From a virus (lineage: Duplodnaviria; Caudoviricetes): a stretch of 64,000 nt of DNA. Position 1 is the first letter of the stretch, and each line of letters opens with the position of its first letter. The notes under the pieces were generated by a model. That model searched no databases and was not told the DNA's origin. It saw only the letters and a list, made by a program, of their open reading frames with translations. Of the stretch, positions 2,292 through 63,063 are shown one piece after another. The stretch is taken from IMG/VR virus record IMGVR_UViG_3300033067_001375, positions 3,519 through 67,518 of that record, one strand, 5' to 3'. A program made the position numbers and the translations under genes.

Positions 2292-2390
2292 CGACGGCCG
2301 ATAGGCTGGTCACTTGTTGGCCTCACGGAAAGCGACAGCAACGTAGCGTTGTCAATCTGCGCGCACCTTCACGGAAAGCGCGTACACTCT

Positions 2391-5196: not shown

Positions 5197-5769
5197 ATGA
5201 CCAAACGTGCGGGCAAAGGCTCGAAGAATAAACGGCGGTTGGCGCATGCGGAAGCGTTGACGGCGGACAATCTGAGCCCTGAGGAATCACTTGCACTTGA
5301 GCTTGAGGCCTTGCGGTCGGGTTGGCTTAACGGCTCACCAACGTTTGCAAAAACGCGTGAGGCGTTGCTACTCAAAGCAGCTACCAAGGCCTTAAACGGC
5401 AAGTGTGACGATCAAACGTTTATAAAGCTCATGAGAGCCATTGCCCAAACAGAGCACAGAGAGATAGCCCTAAGGCTACAGGCGGCCTCAATTAGCCTTA
5501 GGGCTCAAGGGAAAGGTGGCGATGATTTGCCAGAGCAGCGCGGCTTGCCAGAGCAAAGGGGCGGCTCAACCGTTGTGATCAACAACAACGTGAGCGGACA
5601 AGATACGGCGCCGGCTCAGGTGCCAACGTTCGAAGTGATTCAACAGTTGATTGCCAAAAGAGAAATACGCGATGCCGCCGATAGACGCCCCCAACATATG
5701 CGAGCTCTTGACGCCGCTGGACCTAGCCCAACATTGCAACCCCAAATTCCTACGGCCCCCGCACTTTGA
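5197..5769 (+). CDS. Putative terminase small subunit
   Basis: Helical protein directly upstream of and overlapping TerL; assignment is positional only. Confidence 0.5.
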   Translation: MTKRAGKGSKNKRRLAHAEALTADNLSPEESLALELEALRSGWLNGSPTFAKTREALLLKAATKALNGKCDDQTFIKLMRAIAQTEHREIALRLQAASISLRAQGKGGDDLPEQRGLPEQRGGSTVVINNNVSGQDTAPAQVPTFEVIQQLIAKREIRDAADRRPQHMRALDAAGPSPTLQPQIPTAPAL

Positions 5770-7927
5770 ACTATTGCAACGTGAGTTTCTTGAGACGTTA
5801 CAGCCAGAAGGTTGGGACGTTCTAATAGCTCAGGCGCCGCCCCGTCACGGCAAGAGTGAGTTTTTGTCCCGGTGGGTACCGTCTTGGTTTCATCTGACCT
5901 ACCCAACTGAGCGGTCAATTCTGACCTCTTACGCGCTTGACCTTGCACGCGATCACTCACGCGAAGTGCGCGATAGGGTGCATGAGTACGCGCCGCTATT
6001 TGGTCACCGTGGCATTGACCGAAAGGTGAGCGGTAATGCTGACTGGAAAATTGCAGACTACGGCGGCGGCATGAAAGCGGCCGGGATCCGTGGGGCGATC
6101 ACTGGGCGTGGTGCAAATCTGTTTTTGATTGATGACTACTTTAAGAATGACGAGGAGGCAGTCAACCAAACTCTCAGGGATAAGCAATGGTCTTGGTTTC
6201 AGACGACGGCAACAACGCGATTCGAGCCCGGTTGTAAGTTGATCGTGTTGGCTTGCCTCGTTGGTGATACGCCCGTCGCTATGGCTGACGGCTCAAGCGT
6301 GCCTATTCGTGATGTGCGGCCGGGCGATAGAGTCAAGACGTTTGACGACGGCCGGTTGGCTACTTCTGTTATTCGTAATCATGCCTCAGTTGGGTACGAC
6401 GACGTGTTCCGTTTGACGTTGCAATCGGGTAAAACGGTGACAGCAAACGCGCGTCACCCGTTTTTAGTTGCACGCAATGGAGCTTTGAAGTGGATCAGGC
6501 TGAGAAACTTGACTACCGGGTTGAGAATCGTAACAACAAAGGCCAGTGGGGTAAGTGGAAAGGGAAAACTTGCCAATGGGAAGGTTGCGAACGGCCGGCA
6601 AAGTGCCGTGGATACTGCCATCACCACTACGCGAAGAAACGCACGCTTGACGGCTACCGTGCCCCCTCTCACAATCCGGAATCTCACCGAAAATCAAGGC
6701 TCAAATATCGCTACGGCATTACGGTTGATGACTACAACGCGTTACTCAAAAAACAACGTGGCGTTTGTGCCGTATGCCGTCAACCGCCAAGCGAGCATAA
6801 CACACGCAAACACCAAGGCGGACGATTGTGCGTTGATCACTGCCATGACACTGGAAAGGTGCGAGCCCTCTTGTGCAACGATTGCAACCTTGCCGCCGGA
6901 TACATTAAGACCAGCGCCGCCGCCGCTCAGTTGGCTCGATACCTCAGAGTTTTTGAGCGACTCAATAGTAGCGATTGAGTTCGCCGGCCGGGCCGAAGTG
7001 TTTGATATTGAGATTGAAGGGACGGGCAACTTCATTGCGGCAGGAATGGTAAGCCACAATACGCGCTGGCATGAGGACGACTTGATTGGCCGAATACTCA
7101 AATACGCCCTTGAAGATTCTGAGGCGCCAATGCGTGTGCGTGAGATACGCTTACCCGCGCTAGCTGAGCCAACCGATGAACAGCCCGACCCACTTGGCCG
7201 GAAAACCGATGAGGCTCTTTGGCCTGAGCGTTACAGCACGGCCGCGCTCAAGGCTAAGCGGTCACTCATGGACGGCTATTGGTTCAACGCGATGTTTCAA
7301 CAGCGGTTGACTTCGCACGGGTTCAACGAATGGCCAAGCGAATATTTCTACGGCGTGATGGCTCAGGATGATGAGTGGCCCGATAGGTTCACGATGAGCG
7401 CAACGGCCTTGGATCCAAGCAAAGGGCGCGATGCCAAGAAAGGTGACTTCTCAGGCATAGTCACGGCCGGTTATCACAAAGGCTACATTTGGCTTGACTG
7501 TGACCTTGAGCGGCGGCCGGTTCCAAAGATGATGCGCGACTTGGTTGACTGGAACAACCAGCGACGGCCAACAGTTACAGGCATTGAAGCGGTTGCATTC
7601 CAAGAGCTCTTGGGTACTGACTACGTTCAAGCTCAGATTGAGGCCGGCGGCTATCGTGATGAGCCTGAGCTTATATACAACAACGTGTCAAAGAATCTTC
7701 GCATTGGCAGGATAGGGACGTGGCTCAGGTTGCATATGCTCAAGATCCGCAACACGCCCGGCGGCAAGCTCTTGCTACAGCAACTTAAAGAGTTTCCCAA
7801 CGCGAAGTATGACGACGGCCCCGATGCCGCCGAGATGGCCATACGGCTCTTGCTAACGCTGAGCGAAGCGTTGGCCGAAATCTTCGTTCAGGCCTCACCG
7901 ATGTATACCGAAAGAATTATCACGTAG
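5651..7927 (+). CDS. terL: Terminase large subunit, intein-containing
   Basis: Walker A PPRHGKS, Walker B LFLIDD, coupling motif LA|TRWHEDDL split by the intein, nuclease acidic motifs ALDPS and YDDGPDA. Start may be ATG 5672. Confidence 0.95.
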   Translation: MPKEKYAMPPIDAPNICELLTPLDLAQHCNPKFLRPPHFELLQREFLETLQPEGWDVLIAQAPPRHGKSEFLSRWVPSWFHLTYPTERSILTSYALDLARDHSREVRDRVHEYAPLFGHRGIDRKVSGNADWKIADYGGGMKAAGIRGAITGRGANLFLIDDYFKNDEEAVNQTLRDKQWSWFQTTATTRFEPGCKLIVLACLVGDTPVAMADGSSVPIRDVRPGDRVKTFDDGRLATSVIRNHASVGYDDVFRLTLQSGKTVTANARHPFLVARNGALKWIRLRNLTTGLRIVTTKASGVSGKGKLANGKVANGRQSAVDTAITTTRRNARLTATVPPLTIRNLTENQGSNIATALRLMTTTRYSKNNVAFVPYAVNRQASITHANTKADDCALITAMTLERCEPSCATIATLPPDTLRPAPPPLSWLDTSEFLSDSIVAIEFAGRAEVFDIEIEGTGNFIAAGMVSHNTRWHEDDLIGRILKYALEDSEAPMRVREIRLPALAEPTDEQPDPLGRKTDEALWPERYSTAALKAKRSLMDGYWFNAMFQQRLTSHGFNEWPSEYFYGVMAQDDEWPDRFTMSATALDPSKGRDAKKGDFSGIVTAGYHKGYIWLDCDLERRPVPKMMRDLVDWNNQRRPTVTGIEAVAFQELLGTDYVQAQIEAGGYRDEPELIYNNVSKNLRIGRIGTWLRLHMLKIRNTPGGKLLLQQLKEFPNAKYDDGPDAAEMAIRLLLTLSEALAEIFVQASPMYTERIIT
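6254..7060 (+). mobile_element. Intein (269 aa) in TerL
   Basis: Block A CLVGDTPVAMADGS, block B-like ANARHPFLV, block F VFDIEIEGTGNF, block G VSHN followed by Thr+1. Removing it restores KLIVLA-TRWHEDDL. Confidence 0.95.
6490..6978 (+). CDS. Endonuclease VII-type (His-Me finger) nuclease nested in the -1 frame of the intein
   Basis: CAVC...LCVDHCHDTGKVRALLCNDCN motif; N-terminal CQWEGC...CRGYCHHHY Zn motif; GGAG 7 nt upstream of GTG 6490. Confidence 0.88.
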   Translation: MDQAEKLDYRVENRNNKGQWGKWKGKTCQWEGCERPAKCRGYCHHHYAKKRTLDGYRAPSHNPESHRKSRLKYRYGITVDDYNALLKKQRGVCAVCRQPPSEHNTRKHQGGRLCVDHCHDTGKVRALLCNDCNLAAGYIKTSAAAAQLARYLRVFERLNSSD

Positions 7928-15257: not shown

Positions 15258-18200
15258 ATGAGCGTTGAAATTCGATTGCGTGAGTTGTTCGGGGACGTCG
15301 TATCGCCTGATTATACATTTGACGGTACCGGCGTCAGTTGGGGTTGGGACCGCACTGGGCGCGGCGTGTATACCAAGCTCTATGATCGAGCCAACGGCCG
15401 CTATTTGCCAGTGTTCGAAAATGAGCTTGACCTACGCGCCCTCAGGCAATCGGCTTGGCTCATGGCTGAGCGTGTGCCGATGGCCAAGTCTATCATTCAC
15501 GGCTTACAAAACTACACGATTGCCAGCGGGTTTGATTACAAGATAACGCACAGCAATCCTACCGTTGCTCAGATTTGCACCAAAGTATTCAAAAACTGGG
15601 AATCGAATTCCAAGTGGACAAGTCACCAAGAGCGTGATAGTTTCGCGGCCGAAATCGTCGACGGTGAGTTCATTGCTGAGCTATGTTGTGACGGCCCCGA
15701 TGTTTGCCTTGAGCCGCTTGAGGGTGACAATCTCACTGAGCCGCTTAACACAAATGACCTTGATGACTACTTTGAAATCAACGGGCCAACTGATTGGACG
15801 TTTGGCGTTTGCACGCGTGAAAACAAGTTTCGGCCGTTGCGTTATCACGTTGTGCGCAATGACACGGCTACAGACTGGGACGCCCTCAAGCCTTGCGAAA
15901 TAGTTCACTGGACCCGCAACGTTCCGGTCAAGGCCAAGCGCGGGTTTGGTGACTTCTACATTTGTCACCGATACTTGGGTCACGCTGACAAGCTTGCGAT
16001 CAATACGGCGATTGGTACGCAAACGCAAGCGGCCATTGCCTACATAGTTGAGCACGCGGAAGGCGCCCGAAAAGATTCGGTTATGAACATGCTAAACGGG
16101 CTCAGAAACGTTGTGCCCAACGCCTATGATCCGGTCACGGGCGACCCCAACATTCGCACAAAAAAGATTGTGCCCGGCCAGCGAATCGACATACCCTTCG
16201 GTGCCAAGTATCACGCCGGTTTGTTGGGCTCAAACGCAAGCAACATTTACATTGAAGTGATGGAGGCAATGTTGCGCATGGTTGGCACTGTGCGTCATTT
16301 CCCTGAGCACATGCTGACCGGATACGCGGGCAACAACAACATGGCTAGCAGCTTGGTTGCTGAGAGCCCGTTTGTTCAAGGTCGTGTTGCAGAGCAAGCG
16401 GTACGGTCATCACGGCTCAAAGAGCTCATCGTCAAGGTTCTGAAAAAGTTTTTCAATTCACCGTGGGCCAAGCAGCGCGGCTATTGTTGGGACGATGTTG
16501 AGGCCGGTCTTGAGATTACCATTAGCGCGCCTGAAATTGTGAGCCGCGACATTGGTGCGCTTACACTTGCACTCAAGAGCCAAATGGAATTGGGCCTATT
16601 GAGCAAGCGCACGGCCTCACAAAAGTTGTCTCTTGAGTTTGACGCTGAGCAAGCCAACATTAAGAGCGAATCGGCTGAGAGCGGCGGCGGTGAAGTTGGC
16701 GCCGATGGTCAACCGGTGGCGCCTGCCGGATCCGGTGTGTTGGCAAATAGCAACCGGGTACAGTTCAAGCGTGCACGCAAGAACGTTGCCGAAATCGTCA
16801 ATGACTTCACCAGCGGCGCGACGACACGCGTGCAAGCCGAAGTGCTCTTGAGCGCTCAAGGTTTCGGCCCGGCAGAAGTTGAAAAGCTACTCAATGAGCA
16901 AACGCCAAACGTGCAAGAAAGTCTTGTAAACCGATTGACAAAGCGGTTGATCCTCAAGCGTTCCAAGTCACTGCGCGAATCGGTACCGCGTAAACGTTTC
17001 AATGTTGCCCGGCTCTTTGAGTGGGATGAGTACGATCATCCGCGCGGCAGCGATGGTAAGTTTATAGGCAAGATGAGCGGTGTTGATTTGAGCGGTTGGA
17101 ATCCCAAACACGCGACGGCCAAGTGGGCGATCAACAAGATCGGAAAGCTTGAGCAGTTCGCTAAGGCTGGCCAATGGGATATGTTCGAAAGTGCACTGAG
17201 CAAGCCCGGCGGATCAACGCTCAACACGTATCAAAAAACTGTTCTCAAAGCACAAGCCAACTTGGCCAAGCTCAAGGTTGACACGGTGAGCGCGCCGCCT
17301 GAGGGTACAACGCCCAAGCTTGAGGCGCCTGAGCTCATCGACGGTAGCGGCTGGAAAAAGGTAGGCTCACAACTTGGCTCAGTTCAAGGCGGCACATACG
17401 TTGCGCCTGACGGTACAAAATACTACGTCAAGCACGGAGATGATCCGTTGCAAGCACGCAACGAAGTATTGGCCTCGAAGTTGTACCAAGCGTGCGGCGG
17501 TAACGCGTTGGATGTTGACTTGGTTGAAATCAACGGCAAGGTGGGCGTGTGTTCGAAGTGGGACGATTCGGCACAAGTGATTGATTGGGCAAGCTCACCT
17601 GACCTCAAGATTGAAGCGGCCAAAGATTATGCCTTGCACGCGTGGCTAAACAACTGGGATTGCGTTGGCCATATCAGCGATCAGACCAACATTAAAGCGA
17701 TCAACGGTAAGCCGGTGTTGATGGATGCCGGCGGTAGCCTCGAATCAAAAGCCACGGGCGGTATCAAACCGTTTGGTACGGTGCCTAGCACTTACAACGA
17801 TTTGCTCAAGCCCGGTATCAATCAGTCGACGGCTAGTGTGTTCGGCGGAATGACGCCGGCACAACACGTTGAAGCGATAAGCAAGCTTGAGAATATCAGC
17901 GATCAAGACATTGCCGACATGGTTACCAAGTTCGGCAACAAGGATACAGCAACCGCGACGATCAAGACGTTGATTGCACGGCGTGACGCTATCCTCGGCA
18001 TGAAAGAAAGCTTGCAAGCGGCCGCCGCAATGTCAACTGACGCCGTGCCAGCGGCTAACACGCCTGAGGCAAAAGTCAGAGGGCCAGCCGATGGCCAATT
18101 GCACAAAATGTTCGGCCTCACGCCGGCACACTATGACAGCGAGCTTGAGACGTTCACGCCTGACGGTTGGGGCATTATAGCCAAGGCCAAGGGATATAAA

Positions 18201-20027
18201 GACTTCGCCGCGATGGTTGGTGCTCACATGGGCGCGGTCACGAAAGTTGGGTTGGCTAAGAGCAAGTTTGACAAGCTCGAAGCATTATCACAGATACCCA
18301 AAGCGCCAGTTGTAGAGCAACAAGCGGCTAAACCTGATCCGGTAGCGGCGGCCGTTGAGGCTGGTGACAGCAACGCGGCTATCAACGCAATCGTCAAGTC
18401 AAAGCTTGCTGGTCAATACGGCTTAGATGCCGATTATGAATTGAAAGATTCGCCTAAATATGCGCCTTATGCGTTGTCGCCTATTGCACAGAAGAAAGGT
18501 TACAAGGGGTTGCTTGACCTCAAGTATCACTTGCCCGATGCTGTTAGCGCATGGGCGGCGGCTAGTGACTTCACTCAGCAAGCCAAGATTCTTGACGCGT
18601 TGCCAAGTAAGGATAATTTCGATTTGGTTATGGCAACCGGCGGTAGCCCAAGTGAAACGTTTAACAAAAAGCTCGACGATATTTTCAGTGGTGGTTTCAA
18701 AGCGCAACCGGCTAGCGCGCCAGTTGCGCCAGTCACGCCACTACATGAGCCATTGGTTGAGCCTGATCACTGGCAAACCAAGCCTGAGGCGATGGCGGCA
18801 AACGTCACGATGGCAGTACCGCCGCCTCCGATCATCACAAGCCCGGCCAACCAGGACAAAGCCAAGCTCTTGGCTAAGTTGCATGAAGCGGCCAAGACTG
18901 GTGATATAGCAGCGGTGCACGCGATACCGGTCAACATGGATGCCAAAAATACTTATGCCAAAAAGGTAACGGCTTACAAGCTTGCAGTGTTGGCGGCGCT
19001 ATCGTCCGGTGGCGTTGTGGATCCGGCACACGTTACGCCTCCGTCAACGGCTCCGGTTGAAACTGCGCCTGAGGTACCCGGAACAAAGGCGGGGGCACTG
19101 CCTACGCTCACCAGCAAGGTAATCAAGGGCGTTATCAAGCCTGAGCTATTCCCGGCCGCCCCTGAGTTCGTGAGCTCCAACGCGGCCAACGTAGAGGCCA
19201 ACAACGCGATTGTGACCAAGGCACTCTCACTTGCGGCCGCCGGTGACATTGAGGGGCTTGACGCTCAGAGCGCAACGTTGCCACCAAGCAACAAGCTCAA
19301 GACGTGGCACGCGTCACTATTGAGCACGGTGAAAGATCAAACTCAACCGCAAGTGCAACTAGACGGCTCTTATGCTGACTTCACCAAGGCGATTGGCGCG
19401 CTACCGGCCAAGGGTGCTAAGAAGGTTGGCTACTGGGCGGTTGTTAAAGATTTGGGCGGCGTACCGGCCGGGCTTCCAACTGGTGAATACAAGAGCGCAG
19501 AGTATTCCTATCTGCAAGATCACAACCCGGTTTTGAACAAGGGTTTTGAAAACTACGGAAAGAAACTGGACGGCAATGAAGGGCAAGCGATTGTTTCCTA
19601 CACCAACGGATCCTATGACGGGATAAATTCGTGGTTGCGTCACGGTAAAGGTGATTCGAAGTACAAGGAAAAAGCCAAGCAAGCGGCGGCCGCGATGGCC
19701 AAGGCTTCGCATGAGTTGCCAGTTGGTCTAAAACTCAGCCGCAAACACGACGGAGATATGAGCTCACTCAAGGTTGGTGAGGTTGTTGCTGAGGGTGGTA
19801 TACTATCAACTTCTACGGATCCATCGACGTGGAGCGGTTCGAATCATTGGCATATCACGATTGGCCCCGGCTGCAAAGGTTTGTCAACTCACAAGTTTTC
19901 AAGCCACAAAACAGAGGATGAGATTTTACTACCGCCCAACACGCGTTTGCTCATCACTCATATTGCGCCAGGTGACTACGGAAGCGGCCGAAAGATTCAA
20001 GCGGTTATGTTGCCAACGGTCGACTAA
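15258..20027 (+). CDS. Lambda-type portal protein fused to kinase-like and ADP-ribosyltransferase domains
   Basis: Portal at about aa 1-500; HPRGSDGKF motif at about aa 594; kinase-like domain (YYVK, EVLA.KLY, WLNNWD, D.GGSL) at about aa 699-915; ART with R (LSRK), STS and EDE motifs at the C-terminus. Confidence 0.88.
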   Translation: MSVEIRLRELFGDVVSPDYTFDGTGVSWGWDRTGRGVYTKLYDRANGRYLPVFENELDLRALRQSAWLMAERVPMAKSIIHGLQNYTIASGFDYKITHSNPTVAQICTKVFKNWESNSKWTSHQERDSFAAEIVDGEFIAELCCDGPDVCLEPLEGDNLTEPLNTNDLDDYFEINGPTDWTFGVCTRENKFRPLRYHVVRNDTATDWDALKPCEIVHWTRNVPVKAKRGFGDFYICHRYLGHADKLAINTAIGTQTQAAIAYIVEHAEGARKDSVMNMLNGLRNVVPNAYDPVTGDPNIRTKKIVPGQRIDIPFGAKYHAGLLGSNASNIYIEVMEAMLRMVGTVRHFPEHMLTGYAGNNNMASSLVAESPFVQGRVAEQAVRSSRLKELIVKVLKKFFNSPWAKQRGYCWDDVEAGLEITISAPEIVSRDIGALTLALKSQMELGLLSKRTASQKLSLEFDAEQANIKSESAESGGGEVGADGQPVAPAGSGVLANSNRVQFKRARKNVAEIVNDFTSGATTRVQAEVLLSAQGFGPAEVEKLLNEQTPNVQESLVNRLTKRLILKRSKSLRESVPRKRFNVARLFEWDEYDHPRGSDGKFIGKMSGVDLSGWNPKHATAKWAINKIGKLEQFAKAGQWDMFESALSKPGGSTLNTYQKTVLKAQANLAKLKVDTVSAPPEGTTPKLEAPELIDGSGWKKVGSQLGSVQGGTYVAPDGTKYYVKHGDDPLQARNEVLASKLYQACGGNALDVDLVEINGKVGVCSKWDDSAQVIDWASSPDLKIEAAKDYALHAWLNNWDCVGHISDQTNIKAINGKPVLMDAGGSLESKATGGIKPFGTVPSTYNDLLKPGINQSTASVFGGMTPAQHVEAISKLENISDQDIADMVTKFGNKDTATATIKTLIARRDAILGMKESLQAAAAMSTDAVPAANTPEAKVRGPADGQLHKMFGLTPAHYDSELETFTPDGWGIIAKAKGYKDFAAMVGAHMGAVTKVGLAKSKFDKLEALSQIPKAPVVEQQAAKPDPVAAAVEAGDSNAAINAIVKSKLAGQYGLDADYELKDSPKYAPYALSPIAQKKGYKGLLDLKYHLPDAVSAWAAASDFTQQAKILDALPSKDNFDLVMATGGSPSETFNKKLDDIFSGGFKAQPASAPVAPVTPLHEPLVEPDHWQTKPEAMAANVTMAVPPPPIITSPANQDKAKLLAKLHEAAKTGDIAAVHAIPVNMDAKNTYAKKVTAYKLAVLAALSSGGVVDPAHVTPPSTAPVETAPEVPGTKAGALPTLTSKVIKGVIKPELFPAAPEFVSSNAANVEANNAIVTKALSLAAAGDIEGLDAQSATLPPSNKLKTWHASLLSTVKDQTQPQVQLDGSYADFTKAIGALPAKGAKKVGYWAVVKDLGGVPAGLPTGEYKSAEYSYLQDHNPVLNKGFENYGKKLDGNEGQAIVSYTNGSYDGINSWLRHGKGDSKYKEKAKQAAAAMAKASHELPVGLKLSRKHDGDMSSLKVGEVVAEGGILSTSTDPSTWSGSNHWHITIGPGCKGLSTHKFSSHKTEDEILLPPNTRLLITHIAPGDYGSGRKIQAVMLPTVD

Positions 20028-49712: not shown

Positions 49713-51263
49713 ATGATCAAGACCAAAGAGAAACCAGCCGCCGCCAAGGCAGATAGCAAGGAGTCAGACAACAAGGGCGTTTACGCCAAGCTCAATAAGG
49801 CCTATCGCGTTGGTTGCCCAATTGTCAGCCTTACTACCAGTGACCCGGCCGAGGCTACCCGCAACGTGATAGCAGCGCTTGACAAGTGCGGCGTGGTTAC
49901 GTGGGATTGTGCCGTTGGTGCAAAAATCCCGTTGGGTGTTTCCAATGAGGATCAGGCACAAATAAAGTTGGCGAATGAGGGTCTTGGAAAAGTTGACACG
50001 GACACGCTCAATTTGGCCGATTTTCTGGTGAGTTGCAACAAGTTGCCGCGTGACGTTGCCGTTGTGATTTACAACGCCCATTTGTTCATCGGTGAGCCCT
50101 CGGTTGTTCAAGCTATCTGGAATCTTCGCGACCCATTCAAGAGCCCTAAGCGCATGCTTATTTTGATGAGCCCCGCGCTACGTGTTCCGGTTGAGTTGCA
50201 GCACGACGTGATCGAGCTTGATGAGCCGTTGCCAACGAAAAGCGAATTGGCGTCAGTCATTGACCGCGTTGCCGGCCAAGTGGAGAGCGTTAGCCAAGAG
50301 CAAATTGATGACGCGGCCAACGCTAGCCAAGGCTTGAGCGCCTTTGCTGCTGAGCAGATGGCGGCCCTCAATCTAACCAAAGAAAACGGCTTGAGCGTTC
50401 GCGGTGTTTGGGGTGACAAGTGTGCCAAGATCAACGAAACGCCCGGCCTCAAAGTGATCAGCGCCGGCGGGTTCGATGATGTTGCCGGAGTTGAGCAAAT
50501 CAAAAAGTTTCTCAAGTCCATCTTGGCCGGGCGCGACAAGCCTAATTGCATCGTGTACGTTGACGAAATCGAAAAATCAATGGGCGGCTCAGCCCACGAC
50601 ACAAGCGGCGTGAGTCAAGATCAGTTGGGCGTGTTGTTGCAGTATATGCAAGACAAGAAAGCAACCGGGGCGATTTTCAACGGCCCTCCTGGCGCCGCCA
50701 AGTCAGCACTAGCGAAAGCCGCCGGGGCTGACGCTGGTATCCCTACGATTCAAATTGACCTTGGGGCCATGAAAGGCTCATTGGTTGGCGAATCGGAAAC
50801 GCGGATCCGTGACGCCCTCAAGGTGATTGATAGCGTCAGCGGCGGCCAAACGCTTTGGTTAGCAACGTGCAATAGTCTGACGGCCTTGCCACCTGAGCTA
50901 CGACGCCGGTTCAAGTTTGGTACGTGGTTCTTTGACTTGCCAACGCTTGAAGAGCGCCGGGCTATCTGGGCGCTCTACTGCAAAAAGTATGAGTTGGCTG
51001 AGCCAAGCGAAAAGCTTTTGGCTAATCCATGGACGGGGGCCGAAATCGAGTCTTGCTGCGATATCGCATGGCGAACAATGCAAACCGTTGAGCAAGCCTC
51101 AGATTTCATCGTGAGCTACGCGGTAGCCAATGCACGATCACTTGAGGCCTTGCGTGACGGTGCTGAGGCTAAATTCCTGAGCGCGTCAGCCCCCGGCTAC
51201 TACACCAAGCCCAAGAGTGAGAAAGAGCCTACCGGCGAAAATTCCCGCGAGCTCGATATCTAA
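49713..51263 (+). CDS. Ycf46-like AAA+ ATPase with transposed Walker A/B blocks
   Basis: VYVDEIEK at about aa 281-288 precedes GPPGAAKS at aa 324-331; then LATCN, LPPELRRRF and FFDLP. Confidence 0.88.
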   Translation: MIKTKEKPAAAKADSKESDNKGVYAKLNKAYRVGCPIVSLTTSDPAEATRNVIAALDKCGVVTWDCAVGAKIPLGVSNEDQAQIKLANEGLGKVDTDTLNLADFLVSCNKLPRDVAVVIYNAHLFIGEPSVVQAIWNLRDPFKSPKRMLILMSPALRVPVELQHDVIELDEPLPTKSELASVIDRVAGQVESVSQEQIDDAANASQGLSAFAAEQMAALNLTKENGLSVRGVWGDKCAKINETPGLKVISAGGFDDVAGVEQIKKFLKSILAGRDKPNCIVYVDEIEKSMGGSAHDTSGVSQDQLGVLLQYMQDKKATGAIFNGPPGAAKSALAKAAGADAGIPTIQIDLGAMKGSLVGESETRIRDALKVIDSVSGGQTLWLATCNSLTALPPELRRRFKFGTWFFDLPTLEERRAIWALYCKKYELAEPSEKLLANPWTGAEIESCCDIAWRTMQTVEQASDFIVSYAVANARSLEALRDGAEAKFLSASAPGYYTKPKSEKEPTGENSRELDI

Positions 51264-51281: not shown

Positions 51282-51500
51282 AGCCGCCCGGCCGATAAAT
51301 ACAAAATTGGCCGGGATGGCTTGATCCGCCTACGCGGCGGAGCTAGACTGTCCCCCGGTAAATAAGCAAGCACGCAAATGATTGCGGCAAACTCTCTAAA
51401 ACAATATGGGCCTTAGGTCAGCCGCCCCGCGAAAGCGGCGGTTTGCTTGACCGACCAAGCGGTTGACCTCTGGCCCTCCTTTCAAGATGAAAGATTGCAA

Positions 51501-52070
51501 ATGACAACTCTCGAACTGGCTATCAGCGGTGATTCTGACGCGGCCGCCCAAGTGATCGAAAACGTTGCCAAGCGTGTTCGGTATCTTTGCACCAAAGCGA
51601 ACTACAAAATTACGGCCGTACGTGCGGACGCAGATGACGCGGCTCAAATGGCCCTTGTGCGAATCTATCAAGCTCTTGTTGGCGGTGACTGTGCCGTCAT
51701 GGATCCAAACGCGTTTGGCTGGTTCGTGTTTCGCCAAGCCCGTAACGCGTGCCGTCTGATCGAAAATACACACGGCCGCAAAAAGCGTGAGATAGCCAGG
51801 GAGGCCGCAAGCTTCGATGATGCTGACGCCGGTTGTACGGTTGTCAGCAGTGACAAGCCGGCCGATGAGCGAGCCGTAGAAACAGAGCTCATCGGCGCAC
51901 TTATGGCCATGGTCAAGCGTGATGATGACCGGGCGATACTCAACGGCATTCTTGACGGCATGACGATCAATGAGATTGCCGCCGGCCTCAAGGTTTCCCC
52001 AGCGTTTGTTTACACGCGTCTACAGAAGATTCGCGCAAAGGCGCGTACTCAGTTGGCGCAATTGGTCTAG
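51501..52070 (+). CDS. ECF-type RNA polymerase sigma factor
   Basis: Region 2 (A..GD..A....; DADDAAQ.AL; FGWF...ARN) and region 4 HTH (GMTINEIA..L.VS...VYTRL.KIR). Confidence 0.88.
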   Translation: MTTLELAISGDSDAAAQVIENVAKRVRYLCTKANYKITAVRADADDAAQMALVRIYQALVGGDCAVMDPNAFGWFVFRQARNACRLIENTHGRKKREIAREAASFDDADAGCTVVSSDKPADERAVETELIGALMAMVKRDDDRAILNGILDGMTINEIAAGLKVSPAFVYTRLQKIRAKARTQLAQLV

Positions 52071-53455: not shown

Positions 53456-54463
53456 ATGAGTGACGCGATGACCACAACAACCGATTTGCCAGCCGGGTTC
53501 GTTATTCCTGAGGCTCAGCAAGAGGCGGCCCCAGTGGCCCCAGCGGCAACCCCAAGTGCCATTGAGTTTGGCAAGAAACTGCAAGAGCAAACGAGCGGTT
53601 GTGCGTTGCACACGTACGCGCTCAGCCGCCGCCGAACTATGTCACGCGGTGCCCTCAACCAAGTGGCCGGCATGTTTGAAGCGGAAACCGATTCGATTGG
53701 CGGATCCCGCGAGATTATCAGCCGCAAGCACGAATTCGTTAAGCCGGTCTATATGCTGCTTGACCGCGCGAAAGACTTGGTGCGCACCTATACGATTGAC
53801 TACCCTGAAAAGGGCGTGCGGCTGATCAAGATTGATCGAATCGAATTGGTTGTTGGTAAGATCAACGAAATTCGCGATGAGCTCAACAAGGCGTTGTTGG
53901 CCTTGCGTGACAACTGGCAATCGGTCAAAGATGACGCCAAAAATCGGTTGGGCAATCTCTACAACGAGGGTGACTATCCACTTGACCCAACGGTTGGCTA
54001 TGGCGTTGAGCTCACGTTTCCAGCGATCAAGCCGGATGATCGTTTGGCTCAATTACACCCTGAGCTTTTCAAGCAAGAGCAAGAGCGTATTGCGGCCCGA
54101 TTCGCTGACGCGGTGAAACAAGCCGAGGCAGTGGCGGCCGATGAGCTCACCAAAATGCTTGATCACTTGATTGAGCGGCTGACGCCGGCCGATGGCGGAT
54201 CCAAGAAAACGTTGCATGAGACGACGGTAACCAACTTGGTTGACTTCGCTAAGCGGTTCAAGGATATGAGCGTAGGTAGCAACGCTGACCTTGAGGCCTT
54301 GGTTGCCGAAGTGGAAAAGGCGGCCAGCGGCATTGACGTTAAGACGTTGCGAAAGAGCGACGGCGGTGCCATCGGCAAGATCAAAGAAAAGGTGCAAGGG
54401 TTGCGGGCCAAGATGGATGAGCTTGTCATTGCCCGGCCGATTCGCGAGCTCGATTTGGATTAA
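53456..54463 (+). CDS. DUF3150-like helical protein
   Basis: ...RLGNLYNEGDYP... pattern and long helices; ends RELDLD. Confidence 0.55.
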   Translation: MSDAMTTTTDLPAGFVIPEAQQEAAPVAPAATPSAIEFGKKLQEQTSGCALHTYALSRRRTMSRGALNQVAGMFEAETDSIGGSREIISRKHEFVKPVYMLLDRAKDLVRTYTIDYPEKGVRLIKIDRIELVVGKINEIRDELNKALLALRDNWQSVKDDAKNRLGNLYNEGDYPLDPTVGYGVELTFPAIKPDDRLAQLHPELFKQEQERIAARFADAVKQAEAVAADELTKMLDHLIERLTPADGGSKKTLHETTVTNLVDFAKRFKDMSVGSNADLEALVAEVEKAASGIDVKTLRKSDGGAIGKIKEKVQGLRAKMDELVIARPIRELDLD

Positions 54464-54550: not shown

Positions 54551-55012
54551 ATGTCACACGTCACAACGGTTGATTTGGAAGTTAAGGATTTAGATTGCCT
54601 CGCAAAGGCGGCTGAGTTTCTTGGTCTTGAGCTTGTACGCGATGTTAAAACGTACAAGTGGTGGGGGCGGTTTGTGGGCGATTACAACGACCCGGCAATC
54701 AAGGCTATGGGCCTGACGCCTGAGAATCACGGCAAGTGTGAGCACAAGCTACGCGTAAAGGGCGCCGGTTCTGAGACGTATGAGATTGGCCTTGTGATGG
54801 TCGACGGCTCATGGCGGCTCTTATTTGACTTCTACGCGGGCGGTAATGGCCTCATGCAAAAGATCAGCCGCGTTGGCGCACGCGGTAAGGATTGCGATTT
54901 GTTGGTGCAAGAGTACGCGGCCGAAGTGGCTAAAAAGCAACTGCGCCGCAAGGGTCTACGGTTCACCGAACGCCGCGAAAACGGCAAGATCAAGCTCACG
55001 GCTCAGGTTTAA
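54551..55012 (+). CDS. DUF1257 (Ycf35-like) protein
   Basis: MSH...V...VKDLDCL.KA...LG...EIGL...DG.W.L.FD.Y...L.QEYA. Confidence 0.82.
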   Translation: MSHVTTVDLEVKDLDCLAKAAEFLGLELVRDVKTYKWWGRFVGDYNDPAIKAMGLTPENHGKCEHKLRVKGAGSETYEIGLVMVDGSWRLLFDFYAGGNGLMQKISRVGARGKDCDLLVQEYAAEVAKKQLRRKGLRFTERRENGKIKLTAQV

Positions 55013-55059: not shown

Positions 55060-55251
55060 ATGGCAGGGACAATTGACATTGAGATTGATGAAAAGGGCGC
55101 CGCAACCGTCAAGGTGCAAGGCGTTGCTGGCAAGTCTTGCAAAGATTTGACGGCCAATATTGAGGCCGCGCTTGGCAAGGTTGCCAAGACTGAGCCCACG
55201 CGGGAAATGAATAGCCCGGCCGTTCACAAGCGTACTCAGGGGCAAAAGTAA
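55060..55251 (+). CDS. DUF2997 protein
   Basis: I.I.ID..G...VKV.G..G.SC..LT..IE.ALG.V.....T.E. Confidence 0.85.
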   Translation: MAGTIDIEIDEKGAATVKVQGVAGKSCKDLTANIEAALGKVAKTEPTREMNSPAVHKRTQGQK

Positions 55252-55344: not shown

Positions 55345-56100
55345 ATGGCTTTCAAGATCGGTGATTCGGTTTACATCAAACACGCTGGCATTGTTTTGTA
55401 CAGCGCAACCGTCGTTGATCCGATGCCCGGCGAAAAATGGGTTACTGTGCATGGCTACAACCTGGGCATTAAATACGACAAAGAGCAATTGCACAAAAAC
55501 GTTGTCCGTGTGCGTGAGAGTAATGTTGAGAAAGCCTTGGCGGGTGACGTGCCTTGTTGCAACGTGCACGGCGGAAAGCTTGTAAGGCGAACGGGCAAGC
55601 GGCGAACGTTCCACGCGTGCCCTGAGTGTGATGTTGGTTGGTGGGAAAGGGACGCCTACAAAACAGTTTCCTATCCGGCCAACCAAGCTGTCAGAACAGC
55701 ACGTCTTGAGCTCTGTAAACTCATGCCGGTAAATTGCAGCTACACCTACAAAGTCATGGCGTTTGTGATCGAAAAAACTGGCGGCTCAATCGGGCGGCTC
55801 AACTTCAAAGAGTGCCAAGATTTAACGCGTATCTGCAAGCGCGGCGGCGTGATGCGTTTCGATGACTGGGACGGCAATTGTTGGCGGCTCAGTAGTCTTG
55901 AGGGCGATGAGGCCTACGCAAACGTTGGCCTTGATCGAATGCCCGGCTACTGCAATCGGCACGCGTTTGACCCGGTAACTATGTGGTGCGGATTCTGTGG
56001 CGTCAGCGCAGAGCTTGTAAGATTTGGGACGACAAAAGTTGATCCAAAGGCGGCCTTTAATAGTACCAAGCCAACTGTTTGGCGGGAAATCGAATTGTAG
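55345..56100 (+). CDS. Multi-domain protein with a DUF3268-like zinc finger
   Basis: CNVHGG...FHACPECD...PANQAVRTAR; C-terminal HAFD...CGFCG. Confidence 0.65.
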   Translation: MAFKIGDSVYIKHAGIVLYSATVVDPMPGEKWVTVHGYNLGIKYDKEQLHKNVVRVRESNVEKALAGDVPCCNVHGGKLVRRTGKRRTFHACPECDVGWWERDAYKTVSYPANQAVRTARLELCKLMPVNCSYTYKVMAFVIEKTGGSIGRLNFKECQDLTRICKRGGVMRFDDWDGNCWRLSSLEGDEAYANVGLDRMPGYCNRHAFDPVTMWCGFCGVSAELVRFGTTKVDPKAAFNSTKPTVWREIEL

Positions 56101-61154: not shown

Positions 61155-61463
61155 ATGAGCGGATCAGAGATTGATTATCACTTTGCGTTTGAGCACTTCG
61201 AACGCGAAGTGAGGCCGGTTGTTATCTGGCGCGTTGTGTTTAGCACGGCGGCGGGCAACGCCAACGCGTTACAGTTGACGCGGTACTATAGCGGGCATGA
61301 TGCAAAAGAAAAAGTTGACGCGATTGCGGCCGACAAAACTAAGCGCGTTATCAGCGTTGATAAGTACGTGATGGCGTTGAATAGCTCATTGAAGGATCAG
61401 AAACTTGCAATCGTTAATACCATGCCTACCGCCGCTCAAGAGTCACCAAAGCAAGGGACTTGA
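61155..61463 (+). CDS. Hypothetical protein
   Basis: GAGGG SD. Confidence 0.6.
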   Translation: MSGSEIDYHFAFEHFEREVRPVVIWRVVFSTAAGNANALQLTRYYSGHDAKEKVDAIAADKTKRVISVDKYVMALNSSLKDQKLAIVNTMPTAAQESPKQGT

Positions 61464-63063
61464 TGCGTTCAATGTTCAGCGCGCAAATGAGCCTGAGTTA
61501 CCCTCACTGCTTGTGAGCCCGCCGGGCTCAGGCAAAAGCCGAATGATGCTTGAGCTTGCGGTTGCTGAGTTAGCACGGCCCAACGGCTTGACGGTACTCA
61601 AGGCCCATAGGCGCATGCTCATTGAGCAATTGCAAGCCAACTTTGAAACGGCCGGCATTGAGTACGGCATGATAGCTGACGGATACCCGTACAACCCCGA
61701 CGCCCGTATTCAGCTTGTGTCAAGTCAAACGCTCTACGCACGGGCGGTACAACGCGGCACGATTGACATGCCAAAGGCAACGCTTGTCATTGATGATGAG
61801 GCTCACCAACAGACCGGCAAAATGCAAAGGGCGATGGTCTATGGATCATTCCAAGATAACACGGTGCAAGAGGGCTTCGCGACGAATGGCGCTTACGTGT
61901 GCGGCTTCACGGCCTCACCACTCATGGGCGCGGCCATCTATCAACGGTTGATCAACGTTGCTAGTTATTCAGAGCTACGCGACTGTGGTATGCACCAACT
62001 TGTCAAAGTGTTCGGCCCCGATGAGATTGACACGGCCGGGCTCAAGATGACTCAAGCCGGTGAATACTCAGAGAAGAAACTAGAGGAGCGCGTACAAGTA
62101 ATTTTTGGCAGCGTGTATGCCGAATGGAAAGCGCTAAACACGGCCGCTTACCCGGCCATCTTGTACGCCCCAAGCGTTAAGTCAAGCCGATGGTTTGCAA
62201 CTGAGTTTTTGAAAAAGGGCGTTCGCGTTGCGCACCTCGACGGTGAGCAAGCGTTGATTCCTGAGGGCAACAAGTTGGTCACCTACGCGGCCGATAAGGA
62301 TATCAGGCGGCAACTATTGGAAATGAGCAAGAGCGGTGAGATTGCTATGATCAGCAACCGTTTCGTGTTGCGTGAGGCAATCGACATGCCTTGGCTTTAT
62401 CACGGCATTTTTGCGACCGTGATGGGTAGCTTGACTACCTACCTACAAAGCGTTGGCCGGCTTCAACGTTTTTGGTCTGCATACGATCACAAAATATTGC
62501 AATGTCACGGGGGCTCATACTGGCGCCACGGCTCACCAAACGAAGATAGAACGTGGCGGCTTGGCGTCACAAACCAGCAAGCGCAGAAAGAGCGCATAGA
62601 AAAGATACTCAAGGGTGAACGGCCTGAGGGCATACGGTGCCCGCGTTGTGGTTTCTGGCAACGAAGCGGCCAAGCGTGCCTCAATGAAAATTGCCGACAT
62701 GATCACAAGGGCGTCAGCGTTCGAATGGTTCGAAGTGTGGCGGGTAAGCTCAAGGCGATGACCGGGGCAGTGTATCGCGCACCAAGCAACGATGATGAGG
62801 TAAATAAATTTTGGCGCAAGATTCTTTTCATGTGCGGCAAGGACAATGCGTCAGTCTCAAGCGCGGTTGCCATATTCATTGCCGGTTGCAATAAGCGCGG
62901 TTGGATCCCTGACACAAGCAAACTCACCAACAAGGTGCCCGCCCAAGATTCGATGATGTGGCATAGAAAGGTTGCAGTTGTTTACCCGTGGACCGTGCGT
63001 GCCAAGGTAGTGGCTAAGTCTGAGACGGCCCAACAACCAGTGAGAGAGCTCGATTTAGATTAA
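61405..63063 (+). CDS. Superfamily 2 helicase (RadD/YejH-like) with C-terminal zinc finger
   Basis: SPPGSGKS, DDEAH, GFTASP, LREAIDMP, QSVGRLQR and CPRCG motifs. Confidence 0.92.
   Translation: MQSLIPCLPPLKSHQSKGLDAFNVQRANEPELPSLLVSPPGSGKSRMMLELAVAELARPNGLTVLKAHRRMLIEQLQANFETAGIEYGMIADGYPYNPDARIQLVSSQTLYARAVQRGTIDMPKATLVIDDEAHQQTGKMQRAMVYGSFQDNTVQEGFATNGAYVCGFTASPLMGAAIYQRLINVASYSELRDCGMHQLVKVFGPDEIDTAGLKMTQAGEYSEKKLEERVQVIFGSVYAEWKALNTAAYPAILYAPSVKSSRWFATEFLKKGVRVAHLDGEQALIPEGNKLVTYAADKDIRRQLLEMSKSGEIAMISNRFVLREAIDMPWLYHGIFATVMGSLTTYLQSVGRLQRFWSAYDHKILQCHGGSYWRHGSPNEDRTWRLGVTNQQAQKERIEKILKGERPEGIRCPRCGFWQRSGQACLNENCRHDHKGVSVRMVRSVAGKLKAMTGAVYRAPSNDDEVNKFWRKILFMCGKDNASVSSAVAIFIAGCNKRGWIPDTSKLTNKVPAQDSMMWHRKVAVVYPWTVRAKVVAKSETAQQPVRELDLD

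What the first reader, a model, noticed from the sequence alone, without database searches (positions are those of the whole stretch)
50541..50880. AAA+ ATPase with Walker B block transposed in front of Walker A
Seen: the order is ...VAGVEQIKKFL... [PNCIVYVDEIEK...DTSGVS...LGVLLQYMQD] [GAIFNGPPGAAKS...DLG...SLVGESE...RDAL] LWLATCN...LPPELRRRF...FFDLP. Established: canonical AAA+ and Ycf46 proteins run Walker A, then GESE, then Walker B, then sensor 1. Here two intact blocks are swapped rather than simply circularly permuted, and the P-loop reads GPPGAAKS. Inference: a rewired P-loop topology that keeps all catalytic motifs. I recall similar database sequences but no characterisation.
Basis: partly seen in the sequence, partly recalled or inferred. 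Interest (0 to 1): 0.74.

Follow-up and report, generated by a model that had tools for sequence, protein, structure and literature searches.

The report
AAA ATPase with relocated Walker B
A phage gene encodes a Ycf46-like AAA ATPase in which the 41-residue strand-helix unit carrying Walker B sits in front of the Walker A block instead of behind it; the rearrangement is real, is shared by hundreds of relatives that keep every catalytic residue, and I found no paper that describes it.

Summary
ORF 49713-51263 (+, 516 aa) runs Walker B (D284, E285), then Walker A (K330), then sensor 1 (N387).

- **The change:** block B (aa 279-319, beta3-alpha3) and block A (aa 320-379, beta1 to alpha2) have exchanged places. 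Both termini stay fixed, so this is an internal, non-circular permutation.
- **Not an assembly error:** contigs from a separate study bridge all three junctions. All 385 retrieved relatives, down to 33% identity, show order B-A-C.
- **Origin:** 123 normal-order relatives show A-B-C with the same signature motifs, and no intermediate form turned up. Swapping the blocks back raises BLAST scores to normal-order relatives by 38-45 bits.
- **Fold:** AlphaFold2 models, a normal-order control model and residue covariation all indicate that the usual 5-1-4-3-2 sheet is kept.
- **Context:** the window is a phage. The ATPase belongs to a conserved, uncharacterised module with DUF3150-like, DUF1257 and DUF2997 proteins. 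Normal-order relatives carry the same module on plasmids.
- **Likely role:** an active Cdc48-like remodelling ATPase. Activity, oligomer state and substrate are untested.

Earlier agents of this scan reached the same reading on other DNA. This is a new variant of a known kind.

The parts
49713..51263 (+). Gene for the 516-aa permuted Ycf46-like AAA ATPase (P0001).
   Evidence: ORF list and translation. Pfam AAA scores 53.7 bits against a cut-off of 21.2. 385 homologues share the same block order.
49713..50447 (+). N-terminal domain (about aa 1-245): a degenerate, D1-like AAA-type domain without a P-loop or a DE pair.
   Evidence: The whole model aligns to p97/Cdc48 D1-D2 (Z 16-17, about 400 residues aligned). 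The normal-order control aligns the same way. The sequence has TSDP where Walker A would lie and NAHLF where Walker B would lie.
50547..50669 (+). Block B (aa 279-319): beta3 with Walker B (D284, E285), the pore-loop-2 region DTSGVSQ, and alpha3. This block now lies ahead of Walker A.
   Evidence: HMMER aligns it to the Walker B-alpha3 segment of VAT D2. The block HMM hits it before block A in every family member. Model elements are E279-283 and H302-314.
50670..50849 (+). Block A (aa 320-379): beta1, P-loop GPPGAAKS (K330, S331), alpha1, beta2, pore loop 1 (KGSLVG), and alpha2 with GESE.
   Evidence: Pfam AAA profile positions 2-53 match aa 321-372. Model elements are E318-323, H328-341, E345-348 and H360-376. 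K330 is invariant.
50850..51212 (+). Block C (aa 380-500): beta4 with sensor 1 (N387), the arginine-finger region PPELRRRF (R398, R399), beta5, and the lid with WTGAEI.
   Evidence: N387 and R399 are invariant and R398 nearly so. This stretch aligns to the C-terminal part of the p97 D2 AAA domain and its lid.
51213..51260 (+). Disordered C-terminal tail ending RELDI, with invariant R512.
   Evidence: pLDDT is below 50 for aa 504-516. R512 is invariant in 85 members. The same kind of tail ends three other proteins of this phage.
53456..54463 (+). DUF3150-like 335-aa module partner, ending RELDLD.
   Evidence: BLASTP E 6e-50 and 1e-49 to the proteins in the same position in L004 and L005. Those two match the annotated DUF3150 protein of the Manganitrophus plasmid and the ORF after it. 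There is no direct Pfam hit.
54551..55012 (+). DUF1257 (Ycf35-type) 153-aa module partner.
   Evidence: 44% identical (E 1.5e-37 and 5e-35) to the L004 and L005 proteins, which pass the Pfam DUF1257 cut-off at 26.1 and 27.6 bits against 22.2. There is no direct Pfam hit for the window copy.
55060..55251 (+). DUF2997 63-aa module partner.
   Evidence: Pfam PF11211, E 1.3e-13, 51 bits against a cut-off of 24.1.

Best explanation
The gene encodes a phage-borne, Ycf46-like, two-domain AAA protein: a degenerate D1-like N-domain followed by a classical AAA domain. Within the AAA domain, the 41-residue beta3-alpha3 unit (Walker B, pore loop 2) has changed places with the 60-residue beta1-alpha1-beta2-alpha2 unit (Walker A, pore loop 1).

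Only three loop connections differ from the normal chain: alpha0 to beta3, alpha3 to beta1, and alpha2 to beta4. From general knowledge of the AAA fold, all three lie at the N-terminal edge of the sheet, away from the nucleotide site. The folded domain therefore keeps the normal 5-1-4-3-2 sheet and a complete active site.

The rearrangement arose once from a normal-order ancestor of the same mobile-element family. The probable route is a partial internal duplication followed by loss of the redundant copies; this route is inferred.

The protein most likely still works as an ATP-driven, ring-forming remodeller or unfoldase. It acts within a conserved module with DUF3150-like, DUF1257 and DUF2997 proteins. 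Activity, ring formation and substrate are all inferred.
For: **Block swap is shown.**
- In VAT D2, consecutive segments 321-376 and 376-428 align to profile positions 302-357 and 258-308.
- Swapping the blocks back raises BLAST scores by 38-45 bits against three normal-order relatives.
- Block HMMs give B-A-C in 385 of 385 members and A-B-C in the normal-order relatives, with no intermediates.

**The sequence is real.** Contigs from an independent study bridge all three junctions.

**Selection acts on the catalytic residues.** E285, K288, K330, N387, R399 and G359 are invariant. D284, R398 and S331 are conserved in at least 90% of 85 members, which reach down to 36% identity. Inteins sit in the P-loop, in GES|E and at AT|CN in some members.

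**The fold is kept.**
- The AlphaFold2 model has pLDDT 81.9.
- Its AAA domain matches p97 D2 at Z 15.7-15.9, rmsd 2.5-2.6 A, 198-202 residues aligned.
- A normal-order control model aligns 226-240 residues to the same chains at a similar rmsd. The loss of 28-38 residues is about what a sequential aligner would drop for one 41-residue block.
- Mean-field covariation on 376 members ranks C279 (start of beta3) with S376 (end of alpha2) first of 28,942 pairs. Best ranks for strand pairs are 31 for beta3-beta4, 41 for beta1-beta4, 93 for beta1-beta5 and 288 for beta3-beta2. Fifty-one pairs exceed the maximum of a column-shuffled control.

**Single origin.** The permuted sequences form one side of a branch with SH-aLRT 100.

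**Same module as normal-order relatives.** DUF1257, DUF2997 and a DUF3150-type gene lie next to the permuted ATPase in the window, L003, L004 and L005, and next to the normal-order ATPase on the Manganitrophus plasmid. The Nostoc plasmid shows DUF1257 and DUF2997.
Against: - I could not read model coordinates, so the distance from E285 to the P-loop was never measured.
- The covariation control does not preserve relatedness among sequences. The beta3-beta2 signal (rank 288) is no better than some non-neighbour strand pairs (ranks 233 and 355).
- The GK[ST] glycine is replaced in 77% of permuted members. The arginine-finger region also appears two residues shorter than in normal-order relatives. 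Nucleotide handling may therefore differ.
- The tree samples only the best hits of two searches, so a single origin is not strongly tested.
- There is no biochemical data on any member or on any module partner.
Confidence: 0.8

Rival explanations
1. The permuted protein is a catalytically dead or weak pseudo-ATPase. It would serve as a nucleotide-binding scaffold in the module rather than as a motor.
For: The P-loop GK[ST] glycine is Gly in all 123 normal-order relatives. It is Ala in 210, Ser in 55 and another non-Gly residue in 30 of 381 permuted members. The arginine-finger region appears shortened (PPELRRRF against PPEFLRAERW). The N-domain is already a degenerate AAA-like domain.
Against: E285, K330, N387 and R399 are invariant, and the pore-loop glycine G359 is kept across members down to 36% identity. 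That pattern is hard to explain without catalysis. Inteins target exactly these sites. Eighty-six members still have the glycine.
Confidence: 0.1
2. Block B does not fill the beta3 slot of its own chain. Instead it inserts into a neighbouring protomer (3D domain swap), so Walker B is supplied in trans within the ring.
For: The new alpha0-to-beta3 connection must span two strand positions. Covariation cannot tell contacts within a chain from contacts between chains.
Against: The monomer AlphaFold2 model places E279-283 as a paired strand at pLDDT 82-90 within one chain. The linkers at both block borders are as short as in normal-order relatives.
Confidence: 0.07
3. The order is an artefact of local mis-assembly or of a chimeric contig.
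For: None found. The window comes from a metagenomic virus record.
Against: 385 independent sequences from many samples show the same order. They include a cultured phage, Tunturiibacter phage Tunturi_3 gp103. Contigs from a second study bridge each junction at 96-100% identity.
Confidence: 0.01
4. The DEIEK segment only resembles Walker B by chance, and the domain has lost its true Walker B.
For: The Pfam AAA_2 hit on aa 274-305 is weak on its own (E 0.1).
Against: The whole 41-residue block, including the DTSGVSQ loop and alpha3, matches the Walker B-alpha3 segment of normal-order relatives. Returning it to its usual place raises scores by 38-45 bits. The spacing from Walker A to sensor 1 is 58 residues against 99, a difference of exactly the block length.
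Confidence: 0.01

Closest known systems
Normal-order Ycf46-type AAA ATPases of plasmids and other mobile elements. Examples are the AAA family ATPase WDT73634.1 of a Candidatus Manganitrophus plasmid and WP_010999606.1 of Nostoc PCC 7120 pCC7120alpha.
   Same: They have the same two-domain build and similar length. They share the signature motifs GSLVGESE, DE(I/L)EK, DTSGVSQ, ATCN, PPEL and (W)(S/T)GAE(I/L), and an arginine-bearing C-terminal tail. The neighbouring genes match: DUF1257 and DUF2997, with DUF3150 annotated on the Manganitrophus plasmid. Identity is 27-30% after swapping the blocks back.
   Different: Their order is A-B-C (Walker A, Walker B, sensor 1), and the spacing from Walker A to sensor 1 is 99 residues rather than 58. 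The P-loop glycine is always kept. The arginine-finger region appears two residues longer.
Cyanobacterial and plastid Ycf46 (COG0464, SpoVK/Ycf46/Vps4 family).
   Same: The ESM Atlas model of this protein aligns over 425-428 residues at TM 0.75 to clusters automatically named Ycf46. JGI names normal-order relatives 'SpoVK/Ycf46/Vps4 family'. The DUF2997-DUF1257 (ycf35) gene pair is known from cyanobacteria (PMC4284462).
   Different: Ycf46 has the normal motif order; this rests on my own knowledge plus the normal-order relatives read. No Ycf46 sequence from a plastid or a cyanobacterial chromosome was compared here. The window gene is viral.
Cdc48/p97/VAT type II classical AAA unfoldases.
   Same: These are the best structural and sequence matches among solved structures. 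The whole chain matches D1-D2, and the AAA domain matches D2.
   Different: D1 is degenerate in the window protein, there is no N-terminal cofactor-binding domain of the p97 type, and the D2-like domain is permuted.
Circularly permuted P-loop GTPases (the YlqF/YjeQ type; from my own knowledge).
   Same: They are P-loop NTPases in which the linear order of nucleotide-binding motifs differs from the norm while the fold is kept.
   Different: Those are circular permutations, with new termini. Here both termini are unchanged and two internal neighbouring segments are exchanged. This is a non-cyclic permutation in the sense of PMC2096629.

Membership tests
Classical AAA domain (Pfam PF00004) | Profile match above the curated cut-off. 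| tested here: met
   53.7 bits against a cut-off of 21.2, but in two stretches. The best stretch covers only profile positions 2-53.
Classical AAA domain (Pfam PF00004) | Walker A with lysine and Ser/Thr; Walker B with the DE pair. | tested here: met
   The motifs are GPPGAAKS (K330, S331) and VYVDE (D284, E285). K330 and E285 are invariant. The GK glycine is Ala in this protein.
Classical AAA domain (Pfam PF00004) | Sensor 1 Asn and the arginine fingers of the second region of homology. | tested here: met
   N387 and R399 are invariant, and R398 is kept in at least 90% of members.
Classical AAA domain (Pfam PF00004) | Linear order Walker A, pore loop 1, Walker B, sensor 1. | tested here: not met
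   The order is Walker B, Walker A, pore loop 1, sensor 1, in 385 of 385 members.
Classical AAA domain (Pfam PF00004) | Alpha/beta core with sheet order 5-1-4-3-2, plus a helical lid. | tested here: inconclusive
   The predicted model matches p97 D2 at Z 15.9, rmsd 2.6 A over 198 residues. The control comparison and covariation agree with the normal sheet order. I could not read coordinates, and there is no experimental structure.
Classical AAA domain (Pfam PF00004) | ATP hydrolysis and a ring oligomer. | not testable with these tools
This needs biochemistry.
Ycf46-type AAA with DUF1257/DUF2997 partners | A protein of about 500 aa with a degenerate N-terminal AAA-like domain and a C-terminal AAA domain. 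| tested here: met
   Alignment over aa 26-492 to the normal-order Manganitrophus protein. TM 0.75 to clusters automatically named Ycf46. D1-D2-like match.
Ycf46-type AAA with DUF1257/DUF2997 partners | Neighbouring DUF1257 and DUF2997 genes. | tested here: met
   DUF2997 has a direct Pfam hit. DUF1257 is assigned through 44% identity to members that pass the Pfam cut-off. The same genes lie beside relatives in L003-L005, L025 and L027.
Ycf46-type AAA with DUF1257/DUF2997 partners | Orthology with cyanobacterial or plastid ycf46. | not tested
   No ycf46 sequence from a plastid or a cyanobacterial chromosome was obtained. Only plasmid relatives and Atlas cluster names were available.
Circularly permuted P-loop NTPases | N- and C-terminal parts exchanged, creating new termini. 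| tested here: not met
   The N-domain, alpha0, sensor 1, lid and tail keep their places. Only aa 279-319 and aa 320-379 are exchanged.
IetA (anti-phage IetAS ATPase) | Full-length match to the IetA or IteA models. | tested here: not met
   Only partial hits were found: 32.4 bits in PADLOC and 27.2 bits against a cut-off of 510 in NCBIfam, both on aa 369-460.

The most novel reading that the evidence does not exclude
This may be the first recognised natural non-circular permutation of the ASCE P-loop core: a fully active classical AAA motor whose covalent wiring between catalytic motifs and pore loops is changed. Here pore loop 2 and alpha3 lead into the P-loop strand, and pore loop 1 and alpha2 lead into the sensor 1 strand. 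The motor would act as the engine of an undescribed four-protein machine of phages and plasmids (AAA, DUF3150, DUF1257, DUF2997). That machine may recognise partners or clients through a shared C-terminal R-E-L-D-type tail.
Probability: 0.35. Interest if true: 0.8.

Novelty: new variant of a known kind. Interest (0 to 1): 0.68.

Why it matters
- **Fold evolution.** Non-cyclic permutations of a conserved enzyme core are rare. This one is a large, naturally selected family with a close normal-order sister family working in the same gene module. That makes a ready-made comparison for asking how far strand order matters for folding of the P-loop core.
- **Motor mechanism.** In AAA motors the chain that links Walker B, pore loop 2 and sensor 1 is thought to carry signals between the nucleotide site and the pore. 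Here that chain is cut and rejoined differently, so models of this coupling can be tested on a natural variant.
- **Annotation.** Profile models match only part of the domain; precomputed Pfam hits on three of the four homologue loci looked up are marked 'weak' or 'faint'.
- **A testable module.** The finding points to an unstudied module shared by phages, plasmids and cyanobacteria (ycf46, ycf35). A cultured phage, Tunturi_3, carries a permuted member.

Tried and rejected
- **Complex prediction.** Ring formation and an in-trans Walker B were therefore not tested.
- **Profile-profile comparison.** Protein comparison on A2 against A3 failed internally. hhalign in the script box failed on the input format. 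Block HMMs were used instead.
- **Model coordinates.** Model files are not exposed in the script box, so no residue distances could be measured.
- **Literature.** One search timed out. Searches for permuted AAA or P-loop wording, Ycf46, DUF1257, DUF2997 and DUF3150 found no description of this rearrangement and no functional study of the partners. The library lacks most subscription journals, so this is not proof of absence.
- **Direct Pfam hits for two partners.** The window's 153-aa and 335-aa proteins gave no direct Pfam DUF1257 or DUF3150 hit. They were assigned through intermediate homologues.
- **Defence systems.** PADLOC gave only partial IetA hits on the ATPase and nothing on the partners. 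The module is not filed as a known defence system.
- **Expression.** No RNA holder was listed among the sequencing runs, so nothing can be said on expression.
- **Intermediate forms.** No A-B-A-C or B-A-B-C form was found among 508 sequences. Only the best hits of three searches were visible, so intermediates could still exist.
- **Plasmid tblastn.** The search aligned normal-order proteins across the swap in one piece. That looked collinear until the sequences were read.
Full report
**1. The observation**

The stretch 50541-50880 lies inside one ORF, 49713-51263 on the + strand, which gives 516 aa. The translation reads, in order:
- FDDVAG, the usual helix ahead of an AAA core;
- CIVYVDEIEK, the Walker B strand with D284 and E285;
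- a DTSGVSQ loop and a helix;
- GPPGAAKS, Walker A with K330 and S331;
- IPTIQIDLG, then SLVGESE, which is pore loop 1 and the start of alpha2;
- LWLATCN, sensor 1 with N387;
- PPELRRRF, the arginine fingers;
- FFDLP and a lid with WTGAEI.

Pfam AAA matches aa 321-372 to profile positions 2-53. AAA_2 weakly matches aa 274-305 to its Walker B region.

The clearest single proof comes from a profile search of PDB sequences. In VAT D2, residues 321-376 align to profile positions 302-357. The directly following residues 376-428 align to the preceding profile positions 258-308.

**2. The exact change**

I read three normal-order relatives from plasmids of Nostoc PCC 7120, Microcystis and Candidatus Manganitrophus. 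Against them the borders are sharp:
- Block B is aa 279-319 (41 aa, nt 50547-50669): beta3, Walker B, pore loop 2 and alpha3.
- Block A is aa 320-379 (60 aa, nt 50670-50849): beta1, P-loop, alpha1, beta2, pore loop 1 and alpha2.

These two blocks have exchanged places. Everything before and after them is collinear with the relatives.

Exchanging the blocks back in a script raised BLASTP scores to the three relatives from 146, 92 and 86 bits to 191, 130 and 129 bits. The spacing from Walker A to sensor 1 is 58 residues in the permuted form and 99 in the normal form, a difference of exactly the length of block B.

Both termini are unchanged. This is therefore an internal segment swap, a non-cyclic permutation in the sense of PMC2096629, and not a circular permutation.

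**3. Not an artefact**

Word-indexed searches with the window protein and with its 33%-identical relative from the cultured Tunturiibacter phage Tunturi_3 (gp103) were combined with an exhaustive profile search. Together they gave 385 family members.

HMMs built from blocks B, A and C hit all 385 in the order B-A-C. They hit the normal-order relatives in the order A-B-C, with no intermediate form. One of the 123 normal-order sequences is a fragment in which only block A was hit.

The profile search counted 2,981 clusters at 50% identity with E <= 1e-30. The best 150 all match end to end at E < 1e-150.

Logan contigs from a different study (riverine metagenomes) bridge each junction at 96-100% identity: 50454-50610, 50499-50689 and 50691-50876. 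One run holds the whole stretch with no difference, though that run may be the source sample.

**4. Selection**

In 85 members reaching down to 36% identity:
- E285, K288, K330, G327, G359, N387, R399 and the tail residue R512 are invariant.
- D284, S331 and R398 are kept in at least 90%.

Some members carry inteins exactly in the P-loop (GPPG|C...HN|AKS), in GES|E, and between T and C of ATCN. Inteins typically sit in the most conserved sites of proteins.

Two changes travel with the permutation:
- The glycine of GK[ST] is Gly in 123 of 123 normal-order relatives. Among 381 permuted members it is Gly in only 86, Ala in 210 and Ser in 55.
- The arginine-finger region reads PPELRRRF against PPEFLRAERW, which appears two residues shorter.

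**5. Fold**

AlphaFold2 with a 20-sequence alignment gave pLDDT 81.9 and pTM 0.74. The element order is E279-283, H302-314, E318-323, H328-341, E345-348, H360-376, E380-386 and E404-406.

The whole chain aligns to D1-D2 of p97, Cdc48 and NVL. The N-domain is therefore a degenerate D1-like domain; it has neither a P-loop nor a DE pair.

As a control I modelled a normal-order relative (pLDDT 90.1) and compared both models with the same PDB chains:

| PDB chain | Permuted model: Z, rmsd, residues aligned | Normal-order control: Z, rmsd, residues aligned |
|---|---|---|
| 3cf0_A (p97 D2) | 15.7, 2.5 A, 202 | 24.2, 2.6 A, 240 |
| 6g2v (p97 D2) | 15.9, 2.6 A, 198 | 23.7, 2.1 A, 226 |
| 4d82_B (Vps4) | 15.2, 2.9 A, 202 | 23.8, 2.2 A, 231 |
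| 6bmf_B (Vps4) | 15.8, 3.5 A, 213 | 23.8, 2.9 A, 249 |

The permuted model loses 28-38 aligned residues, while rmsd is equal on 3cf0_A and 0.5-0.7 A higher on the other three chains. That is about what a sequence-ordered aligner would drop if one 41-residue block sits in its usual place in space but out of order in the chain.

This was mean-field direct-coupling analysis on 376 permuted members, with an effective number of 304, over residues 246-500.
- The top pair of 28,942 is C279 (first residue of beta3) with S376 (end of alpha2). These two are near neighbours in the normal chain but 97 residues apart here.
- Other high pairs are V281-W382 (beta3-beta4, rank 31), N278-Q379 (rank 39), I286-A384 (rank 21), A320-L383 (beta1-beta4, rank 41) and F322-F407 (beta1-beta5, rank 93).
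- Further pairs link alpha3 to alpha2 and pore loop 2 to pore loop 1.
- The best beta3-beta2 pair ranks 288.
- A column-shuffled control peaked at 1.73, and 51 real pairs exceed it.

The strongest strand adjacencies thus spell 5-1-4-3, the normal order. The beta3-beta2 contact is only weakly supported, and the control does not preserve relatedness among sequences.

**6. Where it comes from**

The window is an IMG/VR virus record of 67.5 kb. It has a large terminase, a portal, a protease and tail genes. An ECF-type sigma factor gene lies just downstream of the ATPase.

The ATPase heads a module with three partners:
- A 335-aa DUF3150-like protein (53456-54463).
- A 153-aa DUF1257 protein (54551-55012).
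- A 63-aa DUF2997 protein (55060-55251). Pfam detects this one directly. The other two are assigned through homologues that pass Pfam cut-offs or carry the annotation.

The same set of genes follows the permuted ATPase in three other loci, at 59%, 46% and 45% identity. It also accompanies normal-order ATPases on the Nostoc and Manganitrophus plasmids.

The normal-order relatives share the unusual motifs of the permuted family: GSLVGESE, DTSGVSQ, ATCN and the C-terminal region. A tree of 44 members with the blocks swapped back and 43 normal-order sequences puts all permuted ones on one side of a branch with SH-aLRT 100. Because the sequences are the best hits of two searches, this is consistent with a single origin but does not prove it.

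In species-representative genomes the permuted form occurs in MAG contigs assigned mainly to Planctomycetota, Acidobacteriota, Armatimonadota and Gemmatimonadota.

**7. How it most likely works**

Shown: the swap, its conservation, the retained catalytic residues and the shared module.

Inferred from the known AAA fold: the three changed connections (alpha0 to beta3, alpha3 to beta1, alpha2 to beta4) join neighbouring or near-neighbouring strands at the edge of the sheet away from the nucleotide. This is why the active site and both pore loops can stay in place.

Inferred by analogy with Cdc48, VAT and Vps4: the protein forms a ring and uses ATP to remodel or unfold a protein.

Inferred route of origin: partial internal duplication giving redundant copies of A and B, followed by loss of the outer copies. 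No intermediate was seen.

The substrate is unknown. One lead is that only 4 of 405 ORFs of at least 60 aa in the window end in an R-[EDRK]-hydrophobic-[DE] tail. They are the ATPase (RELDI), the DUF3150-like protein (RELDLD), ORF 55345-56100 (REIEL) and ORF 61405-63063 (RELDLD). The tail arginine is invariant in the ATPase family. The DUF3150-like proteins of other loci carry similar tails.

**8. Comparison and novelty**

The protein works like, and descends from, the Ycf46-type classical AAA proteins. It fails one defining feature of every described AAA domain, the linear motif order. I therefore class it as a new variant of a known kind.

Full-text searches found no description of a permuted AAA or AAA+ core and no functional study of the partner families. 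The library is incomplete, so priority cannot be certain.

Earlier agents of this scan reported the same relocated Walker B cassette and the same module on other DNA. I tested these points independently here.

**9. Verdict**

I score interest at 0.68.

Noticed in passing
Homologues P0031, P0061, P0132, P0191, P0207, P0219, P0227, P0255; probably also L009:2509-4816: Some permuted family members carry inteins of about 150-395 aa. They are inserted in the P-loop (after GPPG or GTGK), in GES|E, or between T and C of the sensor 1 motif ATCN. In L009 the match spans 2.3 kb for 496 aa.
   Followed up: partly
window 51246-51260, 54446-54460, 56083-56097, 63043-63060: Only four of 405 ORFs of at least 60 aa end in an R-[EDRK]-hydrophobic-[DE] tail, and all four are + strand genes of the early region: the ATPase (RELDI), the DUF3150-like protein (RELDLD), ORF 55345-56100 (REIEL) and ORF 61405-63063 (RELDLD). 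Similar tails end the DUF3150-like proteins of other loci. This may be a shared docking or recognition tag.
   Followed up: partly
window 51447-52070: A 207-aa ECF-type sigma factor gene (Pfam Sigma70_ECF E 1.2e-07; phrog_1740) lies directly downstream of the ATPase, between it and the rest of the module.
   Followed up: no
window 5651-7927: The 758-aa large terminase matches terminase profiles only at aa 25-199 and aa 470-744. About 270 residues in between are unmatched and could be an insertion.
   Followed up: no
window 15258-20027: A 1,589-aa protein matches a portal profile only in its first 380 residues. The remainder is unassigned.
   Followed up: no
window 2349-3656: A 435-aa protein matches ParB-like nuclease/partition profiles at its N-terminus and DNA methyltransferase profiles at its C-terminus.
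   Followed up: no
L027:6126-7012 (Candidatus Manganitrophus plasmid CP114554.1): The annotated DUF3150 gene and the overlapping next ORF match the N- and C-terminal halves of the single phage proteins of about 300 aa. The plasmid gene may be split or frameshifted.
   Followed up: no
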